Part shown: piece by piece, positions 42,725-44,746 of the stretch
Layout of the letters: each line of letters begins with the position of its first letter
Numbering within the stretch: position 1 is the stretch's first letter
Source: a bacterium
Lineage (GTDB): Bacteria; UBA8248
Assembly: GCA_965204535.1 (NCBI GenBank)
Contig: CBDBEV010000001.1
Location: 2,464,001 to 2,528,000, forward strand
Reading direction: 5' to 3'
Length of the DNA stretch: 64,000 nucleotides
The notes under the pieces: model-generated
What the model was told of the DNA's origin: nothing
Databases searched by the model: none
Seen by the model: the letters and a program-made list of their open reading frames with translations, nothing else
Made by a program: the position numbers and the translations under genes

Positions 42725-44746
42725 ATGATCGAACTGGCTTGGCTCATTCCCGTTTTTCCGGTGATCGGAGTCCTGATCAACGGATTGTTCGGAAGGCAAG
42801 TGGGCGAGAAGGCGGGCCCCATCGCTTCCGTCATGGCGGGCTTGTCGCTGCTCGTGGTGCTGGGCATCGCTTTTCAGATGATCTTAGGCTCAGGCGGCAG
42901 CCACACCGTGCCGCTATGGACGTGGGTGGAAGCGGGGAGCTTCAGCGCTTCGATGAGCTTCCTCATCGATCCATTGAGCACCATCATGCTGCTCGTGGTG
43001 GCGGGCGTGGGTTTTCTGGTGCACGTTTACGCCGTGGGCTACATGCACGGAGACCCGGGCTATCCGCGCTTTTTCACCTATCTCAACCTGTTCATGCTCT
43101 CGATGTTCCTGCTGGTGCTGGGGGACAACTATCTCGTCATGTTCGTCGGCTGGGAGGGCGTGGGCCTTTGCAGCTATCTGCTCATCGGCTTCTGGTACGA
43201 GAAGCAATCCGCATCCGATGCGGGCAAAAAGGCGTTCATCGTCAACCGCATCGGCGACGCGGGCTTTCTGCTCGGCATGTTCCTCATCTGGACGCTGACG
43301 GGCAGCCTCACCTACACCGAGGTGTTCAAGGCGGCTCCCGAGATGAGCGCGGCGGCGGCATCGGCCGTCGGGCTTCTGCTGTTCGTCGGCGCCGTCGGCA
43401 AGAGCGCGCAGATTCCGCTCTACGTCTGGCTGCCTGACGCCATGGAAGGTCCGACCCCCGTCAGCGCCCTCATCCACGCCGCCACCATGGTGACGGCGGG
43501 CGTCTACATGGTCGCGCGCACGAGCCCCATCTACGTCATGGGGCCGGACGCTATGAGCGTCATCGCCATCGTCGGCGCGCTCACGGGCCTGTTCGCCGCG
43601 AGCATCGGCCTGGTGCAAAACGACATCAAGCGCGTGCTCGCCTACAGCACGGTGAGCCAGCTCGGCTTCATGTTCATGGCGCTGGGCGTGGGCGCCTTTG
43701 CGGCCGGCATCTTCCACCTGATGACCCACGCCTTCTTCAAGGGCCTGCTCTTTCTGGGCAGCGGGAGCGTCATCCACGCGCTTCACCATGCGTCGGAAGA
43801 GCAGCAACAGGACATGCGCTACATGGGCGGCTTGAAGGACAAGATGCCCGTGACGTACTGGACGTTCCTGATAGGCGCTATCGCCATCGCAGGCGTGCCG
43901 CCGCTGGCGGGTTTCTGGAGCAAGGACGAGATTCTGGCGAACGCCTTCTTCACGGGGCACTACACGGTCTGGATCATGGGCACCGTCGCGGCCTTCATGA
44001 CGGCCTTCTACATGTTCCGGCTCATCTTCATGACGTTTCACGGCGAGATGCGCGTCGATCATCACGCCCGCGAACACATACACGAATCGCCCTCCACGAT
44101 GACGGTTCCGCTCATCATCCTGGCGGTCCTGAGCGTCATCGGCGGCGTGATTCCGGGCTTCCCGCCCGAGGCCGGCTGGATACACCGCTTCCTGGCGCCC
44201 TCGCTGGCGAAGTTGCCGGCCGGCGGCCACGCCACGGAGCAGGGCGTACACCTGATAAACGCCGCGGCCGGCGGCGGGCACAGCGGGCCGGCAGCGATGC
44301 TCCTGATAGTACTGGCCATCGCCGTCGCCGTGGGCGGCATTGCCCTGGCGTGGTACATGTACGTCAAGGACACAGAGGCGCCGCGGCGCCTGTACCGGAG
44401 CATGCCGGGCATTTATTACCTGCTTCTCGGCAAATACTATATCGACGAGATTTACCAGGCCTGCATCGTCGAGCCGGTCTACAAGCTCATGCGCGGCTTG
44501 TGGACTTTCGATGCGAAGGTGGTGGACGGGGCGGTGAACGGCAGTTCGCTTATCACCGTCGTGTCGAGCCGCTTCTCGGGAATTTTCGACCTTCGGACGG
44601 TGGACGGGGCGGTGAACGGCACGGCGAGCTTCATCCGCTTTTTCTCCCAGGTATTCAAATACCTGCAATCCGGAATGGTTCAGAATTATCTATTCGTGAT
44701 GCTGTTGGGCATCTTCGTGATGCTGAGCGCGTACCTTTTCCGCTGA
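42725..44746 (+). CDS. nuoL: NADH-quinone oxidoreductase subunit L (operon 2) with a 26-aa lateral-helix duplication
   Basis: Core NuoL motifs; FD..VDGAVNG occurs twice, 26 aa apart. Confidence 0.95.
   Translation: MIELAWLIPVFPVIGVLINGLFGRQVGEKAGPIASVMAGLSLLVVLGIAFQMILGSGGSHTVPLWTWVEAGSFSASMSFLIDPLSTIMLLVVAGVGFLVHVYAVGYMHGDPGYPRFFTYLNLFMLSMFLLVLGDNYLVMFVGWEGVGLCSYLLIGFWYEKQSASDAGKKAFIVNRIGDAGFLLGMFLIWTLTGSLTYTEVFKAAPEMSAAAASAVGLLLFVGAVGKSAQIPLYVWLPDAMEGPTPVSALIHAATMVTAGVYMVARTSPIYVMGPDAMSVIAIVGALTGLFAASIGLVQNDIKRVLAYSTVSQLGFMFMALGVGAFAAGIFHLMTHAFFKGLLFLGSGSVIHALHHASEEQQQDMRYMGGLKDKMPVTYWTFLIGAIAIAGVPPLAGFWSKDEILANAFFTGHYTVWIMGTVAAFMTAFYMFRLIFMTFHGEMRVDHHAREHIHESPSTMTVPLIILAVLSVIGGVIPGFPPEAGWIHRFLAPSLAKLPAGGHATEQGVHLINAAAGGGHSGPAAMLLIVLAIAVAVGGIALAWYMYVKDTEAPRRLYRSMPGIYYLLLGKYYIDEIYQACIVEPVYKLMRGLWTFDAKVVDGAVNGSSLITVVSSRFSGIFDLRTVDGAVNGTASFIRFFSQVFKYLQSGMVQNYLFVMLLGIFVMLSAYLFR

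What the first reader, a model, noticed from the sequence alone, without database searches (positions are those of the whole stretch)
44500..44670. NuoL with the 26-aa '2M-complex' helix extension in an operon with only one nuoM
Seen: FDAKVVDGAVNG... and FDLRTVDGAVNG... repeat exactly 26 residues apart, with an identical 23-nt DNA repeat at 44521-44543 and 44599-44621. NuoL of operon 1 has one unit. The L-M and M-N gaps are too short for another gene. Established: complex I variants with a second NuoM lengthen the NuoL amphipathic helix by about 26 aa (Chadwick et al. 2018, ISME J). Inference: the extra antiporter slot is filled in trans (NuoM of operon 1, two copies of the same NuoM, or a distant gene), giving a cryptic extra-proton-pumping complex that gene counting would miss; or this is a 2M relic.
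Basis: partly seen in the sequence, partly recalled or inferred. Interest (0 to 1): 0.78.

Follow-up and report, generated by a model that had tools for sequence, protein, structure and literature searches.

The report
One nuoM gene, two NuoM seats
The helix that straps this complex I's proton pumps together is one pump-width longer than in textbook enzymes, although only one NuoM gene sits beside it. This form is common in bacterial complexes lacking the NADH-input genes, and it likely means the same NuoM is built in twice, which would give a hidden fourth pump.

Summary
In detail: a 26-residue repeat lies in the NuoL lateral helix of operon 2, which has one nuoM and no nuoEFG. It is neither recent nor rare. 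47 of 50 same-class genomes and 80 of 350 other genomes carry it. Of 76 scorable operons outside the class, 75 have one nuoM and 1 has two. Helix length is two-state (53-54 or 78-79), and the long form equals that of true two-nuoM operons. Each copy keeps the Asp known to dock on NuoM (79/79 and 78/79), which argues against a relic or looped-out segment. Several genomes have the long helix and one nuoM genome-wide, so supply from another gene is not the general answer. Best reading (about 0.6): NuoM is used twice (L-M-M-N). No structure or stoichiometry shows this. Yu et al. 2022 noted the mismatch in one family, and this scan has found it in at least 8 other genomes. The locus is ordinary for its family; the mechanism is open and directly testable.

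The parts
42725..44746 (+). nuoL of operon 2 (673 aa), long-helix type
44432..44665 (+). lateral helix HL, residues 570-647, predicted as one unbroken helix (pLDDT about 90 falling to 42-60 distally)
44507..44584 (+). 26-aa unit 1 (F595-I620); D596 aligns with Paracoccus NuoL D648, the NuoM-docking Asp
44585..44662 (+). 26-aa unit 2 (F621-Y646); D622 is the second copy of the docking Asp
44521..44543 (+). 23-nt repeat copy 1
44599..44621 (+). 23-nt repeat copy 2
44666..44674 (+). Q648-S-G end of the helix before the last membrane helix, 26 residues after D622; inferred to sit at NuoN
44770..46317 (+). the single nuoM of operon 2; keeps E143, K231, H238, K262, Y314, E404
46353..47855 (+). nuoN of operon 2
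38211..42717 (+). nuoA, B, C, D, H, J, K of operon 2; no nuoE, F, G or I
33078..34982 (+). nuoL of operon 1 (634 aa), one unit; internal control. Operon 1 has nuoEFG and nuoI
35019..36575 (+). nuoM of operon 1, 56% identical to nuoM of operon 2; short-helix type

Best explanation
Operon 2 encodes a complex I without the NADH-input genes whose NuoL helix carries two copies of the NuoM-docking motif, and the single NuoM is likely built in twice, giving a predicted L-M-M-N arm that would move one more proton per turnover. Shown: the repeat, its two-state length, its match to true two-nuoM operons, the conservation of both motifs, the single nuoM and the link to missing nuoEF. Inferred: the helix acts as a ruler that sets the number of pump subunits, NuoM packs head to tail on itself, the donor is a low-potential carrier such as ferredoxin (or the enzyme runs in reverse), and two-gene 2M operons arose from this state by gene duplication.
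For: 1) Ruler. From the anchor Asp to the closing Gln: 22 residues in this genome's MrpA (2 antiporter subunits), 49 in NuoL1 (3), and 74 in NuoL2, the same span class as true L-M-M-N operons. 2) Spacing is 22/26/26 in 125 of 149 long helices and within one residue in 147. No NuoL had a span between 56 and 76 among 234. 3) In 79 non-redundant single-M long helices the docking Asp is 100% and 99% conserved in the two copies and D-G-x-V-N is 89-99% conserved. In 40 short helices the Asp is 68% (28% Glu). Small residues recur at +12 and +19 after each Asp, and the inter-motif stretch is amphipathic at 103 degrees with 4 Pro in 1422 positions. 4) This Asp aligns with Paracoccus D648, which coordinates H239 and Y315 of NuoM (PMC9802314). 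The matching His and Tyr are kept in 98/98 and 96/98 long-type NuoM. 5) There is no other candidate gene in G027 or G028. 6) NuoM2 is more conserved than NuoM1 in 11 of 11 paired genomes, by 8-19 points in the 8 most distant. In 7 of those 8 the L and N gains were 0-7 points; in L038 L gained as much as M. 7) Both NuoM of the 4 two-gene operons fall in one clade with single-gene long-type NuoM (support 99). The three two-gene helices printed have more degenerate motifs. 8) The long helix goes with missing nuoEF in 74 of 76, and the short helix goes with nuoEF present in 21 of 22.
Against: There is no direct evidence of stoichiometry. The residue signature of long-type NuoM is not specific to M: NuoN shows an equal cross-clade signal (0.31 vs 0.13; M 0.25 vs 0.15), and one tree makes long-type NuoM a single clade, so shared ancestry can explain it. 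NuoN keeps the same His/Tyr acceptor and could seat a motif. Shine-Dalgarno strength of nuoM relative to L and N does not differ between long and short operons (p = 0.41). G094 has a long helix with nuoEFG and a short-type NuoM. NuoEFG-less complexes with a short helix exist (L119; cyanobacterial 6hum chain F). Helix tail, nuoM and nuoN are adjacent and travel as a block (11 class changes on the L-core tree, 3 on M, 2 on N), so the 7 independent pairs for the nuoEF link are less independent than they look. The two-gene operons sampled are 4 loci of one clade. The AlphaFold helix has low confidence beyond residue 600.
Confidence: 0.6

Rival explanations
1. The arm is an ordinary L-M-N. The extra unit bulges out or lies free on the membrane, as a relic of a lost second nuoM or a tolerated duplication.
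For: Gene counts are 1:1:1 or 2:2:2 in the window's genome and in most near-complete genomes checked. Yu et al. 2022 raise evolutionary transition as an option. On the NuoM tree the second 2M gene branches at the base of one long-type clade, which allows an old duplication followed by losses. The helix does tolerate an insertion in at least two cases (L143, L146). G094 fits a relic.
Against: Both motifs are near-invariant, the length is fixed and prolines are rare in the segment. A free loop should drift in length and lose one motif. The clade holding the window's NuoM has no two-gene operon among 42 rows.
Confidence: 0.15
2. The fourth seat is real, but NuoN (or an Mrp-type subunit) is the one used twice or borrowed.
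For: NuoN keeps the His and Tyr acceptors (77/79 and 79/79) and the central charged residues, and it carries a long-type signature. The window's genome has an Mrp operon.
Against: The added conservation is in M, not N. Where the gene is duplicated it is nuoM. G027 and G028 have no Mrp-like genes.
Confidence: 0.1
3. The seat is filled in trans by the NuoM of operon 1 or by an orphan nuoM.
For: Two nuo operons lie in tandem here, and operon 2 already depends on a distant nuoI. G041 has an orphan nuoM that is sister to its own long-operon NuoM.
Against: Seven genomes have one long L and one M. Stand-alone L-M pairs in Acidobacteria proved to be split operons with a second nuoN elsewhere (6 of 6 tested). 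NuoM1 belongs to the short-helix type.
Confidence: 0.07
4. Motif 1 docks on NuoM and motif 2 on NuoN, so the last membrane helix of NuoL moves one subunit width towards NuoK/J/A/H or grips an unknown accessory protein linked to the alternative electron donor.
For: The geometry is possible because NuoN has the acceptor residues. It would explain the tie to missing nuoEF without a fourth pump.
Against: The closing Q-[TS]-G is equally conserved in long and short helices (95%/100% in both), which suggests an unchanged docking site. The length equals that of real four-subunit operons.
Confidence: 0.08

Closest known systems
2M complex I (Chadwick et al. 2018, ISME J 12:2668; not held, known only from passages in PMC9040806, PMC6606698, PMC7117926, PMC7419157)
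   Same: NuoL lateral helix lengthened by about 26 residues. Same span (78) as the 4 two-nuoM operons found here, which also lack nuoEFG.
   Different: One nuoM gene in the operon and no spare one in the genome. The motifs are more alike between copies than in the two-gene helices printed.
Complex_I_1 and Complex_I_2 of 'Ca. Manganitrophaceae' (Yu et al. 2022, PMC9040806, section 10 read)
   Same: The paper reports the insertion in NuoL of gene clusters with canonical content and leaves it unexplained.
   Different: It is reported for one family only, and those clusters are called canonical in gene content, whereas nearly all long-helix operons here lack nuoEF. Fig. S2 was not seen.
Canonical complex I (Paracoccus 8qby chain L, cyanobacterial 6hum chain F, operon 1 of this window)
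   Same: Same docking motif, anchor and closing Q-x-G. NuoM and NuoN keep all tested catalytic residues.
   Different: One motif rather than two in the solved chains aligned. No solved structure with the doubled motif was found.
11-subunit (NuoEFG-less) complex I-like enzymes (class recalled from general knowledge)
   Same: Gene set A, B, C, D, H, J, K, L, M, N, with nuoI elsewhere in the genome.
   Different: Usually assumed to have three antiporter subunits (recalled). Some members do have the short helix (L119, cyanobacterial NdhF1).

Membership tests
2M complex I | NuoL lateral helix longer by about 26 residues | tested here: met
   Net +25, period 26; span 78 as in L156-L158 and L235
2M complex I | Second nuoM gene in the operon | tested here: not met
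   Gaps of 23 and 35 nt; the genome has 2 nuoM for 2 operons
2M complex I | Four antiporter-like subunits in the assembled enzyme | not testable with these tools
   Needs cryo-EM or absolute quantitation
2M complex I | More protons moved per electron pair | not testable with these tools
   Described as 'thought to' even for two-gene enzymes (PMC6606698)
2M complex I | Descent from a described 2M clade (Nitrospira, Chloroflexi) | tested here: inconclusive
   No sequence known to be from those clades was in hand. The window's NuoM is outside the clade that holds the 4 two-gene operons found
Canonical 14-subunit complex I | nuoE, F, G in the gene cluster | tested here: not met
   Absent from operon 2, present in operon 1
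NuoEFG-less complex I | nuoABCDHIJKLMN without EFG | tested here: met
   All in operon 2 except nuoI. An orphan nuoI on contig C2 is closest to nuoI of long-helix operons in 11 of its 12 best hits
NuoL / NuoM / NuoN protein families | Score above curated NCBIfam cut-offs | tested here: met
   TIGR01974 756 vs 408; TIGR01972 643 vs 264; TIGR01770 440 vs 333

The most novel reading that the evidence does not exclude
Four-pump complex I is not a rarity defined by a duplicated gene. It is the normal build of a large share of NuoEFG-less bacterial complexes, made from one nuoM used twice, with the NuoL helix measuring out the number of pumps in 26-residue steps. Adding or deleting one repeat switches between three and four pumps as the electron donor changes, and two-gene 2M operons are later specialisations.
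Probability: 0.5. Interest if true: 0.85.

Novelty: new variant of a known kind. Interest (0 to 1): 0.56.

Why it matters
If NuoM is used twice, counting genes understates the proton yield of complex I in more than a fifth of the genomes sampled outside this class (80 of 350, a non-random sample). That would change energy budgets for ferredoxin-linked and reverse electron transport in many uncultured bacteria. It would also show a repeated subunit whose copy number is set by a helical ruler, and give a simple test of whether complex I is modular in 26-residue steps. If instead the helix loops out, the long helix stops being a valid marker of 2M enzymes. Either way this locus is a typical member of the family, not a special case.

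Tried and rejected
1) Complex prediction of the helix (residues 582-643) with two NuoM copies (29-497): score 0.00 in both runs, verdict 'no answer', controls not folded. It is not used for or against.
2) Stand-alone nuoL-nuoM pairs as add-on modules: rejected, since 6 of 6 genomes tested have a second nuoN elsewhere.
3) Convergent NuoM interface signature: 37 sites, 18 of them in TM5, 6, 12 and 13 (p = 0.003). The helices were chosen after seeing the list and the boundaries are my own. It is downgraded because NuoN shows the same cross-clade signal and the trees disagree on whether long-type NuoM is one clade (yes at 97 on 28 rows; split by weak branches of 70 and 13 on 63 rows). The full-set tree and the AU tests did not finish.
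4) Stronger ribosome-binding site on nuoM: not found (p = 0.41, 74 long vs 22 short). nuoM abuts its neighbours less often in long operons (L-M 5/74 vs 6/22, p = 0.016; M-N 27/74 vs 14/22, p = 0.03). Start sites are estimated and kin are not independent, so this is only a hint.
5) Recent duplication as the cause of the 23-nt identity: rejected.
6) Expression: RNA runs hold at most 0.17 of the words and only as contigs. No read depth was obtained, so expression is untested.
7) Chadwick 2018 could not be read (not held). Five paper searches on this question found no report of one NuoM used twice, but most subscription papers are outside the library.
8) No metagenome loci were obtained, so Nitrospira and Chloroflexi 2M operons are not knowingly in the trees.

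Full report
Observation. The two 23-nt copies are identical and 78 nt apart. They lie near the end of nuoL (42725-44746) of the second of two tandem nuo operons. Operon 1 has all 14 genes. Operon 2 has A, B, C, D, H, J, K, L, M, N. The repeat unit is 26 residues (10 of 26 identical), and NuoL2 is 25 residues longer than NuoL1 from the KYY anchor onward. AlphaFold gives one helix over residues 570-647, with low confidence in its outer half. The DNA identity follows from a fixed seven-residue motif, codon bias and perhaps some conversion between copies. All seven codons match in 9 of 20 same-genus genomes, and in 96 distant loci 254 of 454 codons match against 222 expected.

Own genome. The genome (4.56 Mb, 2 contigs, 95.7% complete) has two nuoL, two nuoM and two nuoN, an Mrp operon on the other contig, and an orphan nuoI. 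That nuoI is closest to nuoI of long-helix operons in 11 of 12 best hits, so it is probably the gene missing from operon 2. There is no spare nuoM. Record titles of the nearest relatives read 'Nitrospinota bacterium' and 'Candidatus Tectomicrobia bacterium'.

How common. A profile of 36 long tails matched 47 of 50 same-class genomes and 80 of 350 others. This is a lower bound because at most 11 candidates were scored per genome. The sample is the tool's pick, not random, and the profile was built mostly from single-nuoM tails (33 of 36), so divergent two-gene clades may be under-counted. One of the 80 (G039, order L-M-N) was already in hand; I fetched the other 79. Of these, 68 read L-M-N, 7 read L-M with no further M or N nearby, 3 end at a contig edge, and 1 reads L-M-M-N. 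In Acidobacteriota I fetched 40 loci chosen as likely long, from 100 genomes searched. 39 were long: 25 L-M-N, 9 L-M, 2 cut off and 3 L-M-M-N. Among 234 distinct NuoL the span from anchor to closing Gln was 51-55 or 77-79, with one 89. Two long ones, L242 and L154, were misread as short by the script and corrected by eye, and three more were added by hand for the trees. The long form went with missing nuoEF in 74 of 76 operons, and the short form with nuoEF present in 21 of 22. The short set came from similarity searches and is not a census.

What the repeat is. The first Asp of the motif aligns with Paracoccus NuoL D648. Jarman and Hirst describe that Asp as coordinating H239 and Y315 of NuoM and the helix as purely structural (PMC9802314, passages). 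Steiner and Sazanov state that the helix connects the TM7 helices of the antiporter subunits (PMC7419157, passages). So the duplicated unit carries the NuoM docking site. Anchor-to-Gln distances are 22 in this genome's MrpA, 49 in NuoL1 and 74 in NuoL2, the same class as true two-nuoM operons: about 26 residues per subunit. In 79 non-redundant single-nuoM long helices both copies are near-invariant, at least as conserved as the single copy in 40 short helices, and the packing pattern and amphipathic period carry through. That is the main argument that both copies bind something shaped like NuoM.

What fills the second seat. G027 and G028 (95% complete) have three antiporter-like genes in all. 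G092 and G118 (each on one contig of near genome length), G070, G094 and G465 also have one long L and one M. Other near-complete genomes have equal numbers of L, M and N. Stand-alone L-M pairs were split operons. One real orphan nuoM exists in G041. With no extra gene, the simplest filler is a second copy of the same NuoM. In support, NuoM of operon 2 is more conserved than NuoM of operon 1 in all 11 paired genomes, usually more so than L or N (all measured against the window, so not independent). Both NuoM of the four two-gene operons also group with single-gene long-type NuoM.

Results against or neutral. The NuoM residue signature is matched by NuoN and may be plain ancestry. NuoN has the same acceptor residues. 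No stronger ribosome-binding site was found on nuoM. G094 has a long helix with nuoEFG and a short-type NuoM. Tail, M and N are inherited as a block. The trees are unrooted, so they cannot separate 'helix first, gene duplication later' from 'old duplication, then losses'. No measurement or structure of stoichiometry exists here.

Mechanism, committed. Operon 2 likely makes a donor:quinone oxidoreductase with an L-M-M-N arm from one nuoM (0.6). A low-potential donor such as ferredoxin, or reverse operation, is inferred from the missing nuoEFG and from what is proposed for 2M enzymes (PMC6606698, passages). Rivals are loop-out or relic (0.15), NuoN or Mrp in the seat (0.10), a shifted anchor or unknown partner (0.08), and NuoM in trans (0.07).

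Known versus new. Chadwick et al. 2018 is not held and is known only through citing passages. Yu et al. 2022 (PMC9040806, passages and section 10; Fig. S2 not seen, and it may bear on how closely their cases match) already report the insertion in clusters with canonical gene content. PMC7117926 and PMC8357420 were read as passages only. Five searches found no paper proposing one NuoM used twice. This scan has noted the same feature in at least 8 other genomes; those notes are leads, not support. It works like a 2M helix but fails the two-gene membership test. The locus is an ordinary member of a large family whose architecture is an open, easily tested question.

Noticed in passing
G000:C2:1750486-1751040 (minus strand, outside the window): Orphan nuoI (184 aa), closest to nuoI of long-helix operons. 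Operon 2 lacks nuoI in every same-class region fetched, so this is probably its relocated gene.
   Followed up: partly
L121:8515-10074 (G041): A stand-alone nuoM far from any nuo gene, sister to the NuoM of the same genome's long-helix operon. It is a candidate for a two-gene state with the second gene in trans.
   Followed up: partly
window 44521-44543 and 44599-44621; L001-L020: The Gly codon of the motif matches between the two copies in 15 of 20 same-genus genomes and changes jointly between genomes, hinting at short-tract gene conversion.
   Followed up: partly
L128:8679-13700 (G094): Long helix together with nuoEFG and a short-type NuoM, in a genome with one L and one M; the clearest exception to the pattern.
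   Followed up: partly
L126, L127, L131, L136, L137, L138, L143, L159: Acidobacterial long-nuoL plus nuoM pairs standing apart from other nuo genes. In the 6 genomes tested a second nuoN lies elsewhere.
   Followed up: yes
G000:C1:526100-531450 (minus strand): Mrp-type antiporter operon. Its MrpA helix has no NuoM-docking unit and served as the two-subunit point of the ruler.
   Followed up: partly
L143 and L146, NuoL tails: Extra insertions of about 10 residues inside or before the first motif, showing that the helix can carry a local loop.
   Followed up: no
L034:2200-3800: nuoM of operon 1 is in two ORFs (104 and 419 aa) in this relative: a frameshift or assembly error, not a 2M operon.
   Followed up: no
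window 48559-63262: After operon 2: a 525-aa ORF without NCBIfam match (49287-50864, minus), an IS1595 transposase (51534-52490), a cytosine methyltransferase (58206-59225) and two unmatched ORFs after it, possibly a restriction-modification island.
   Followed up: no
L171 and L173: Two nuo clusters fused in an unusual order, with nuoN directly after K in the first and a short J-K-L-M-N cluster carrying the long helix behind it.
   Followed up: no
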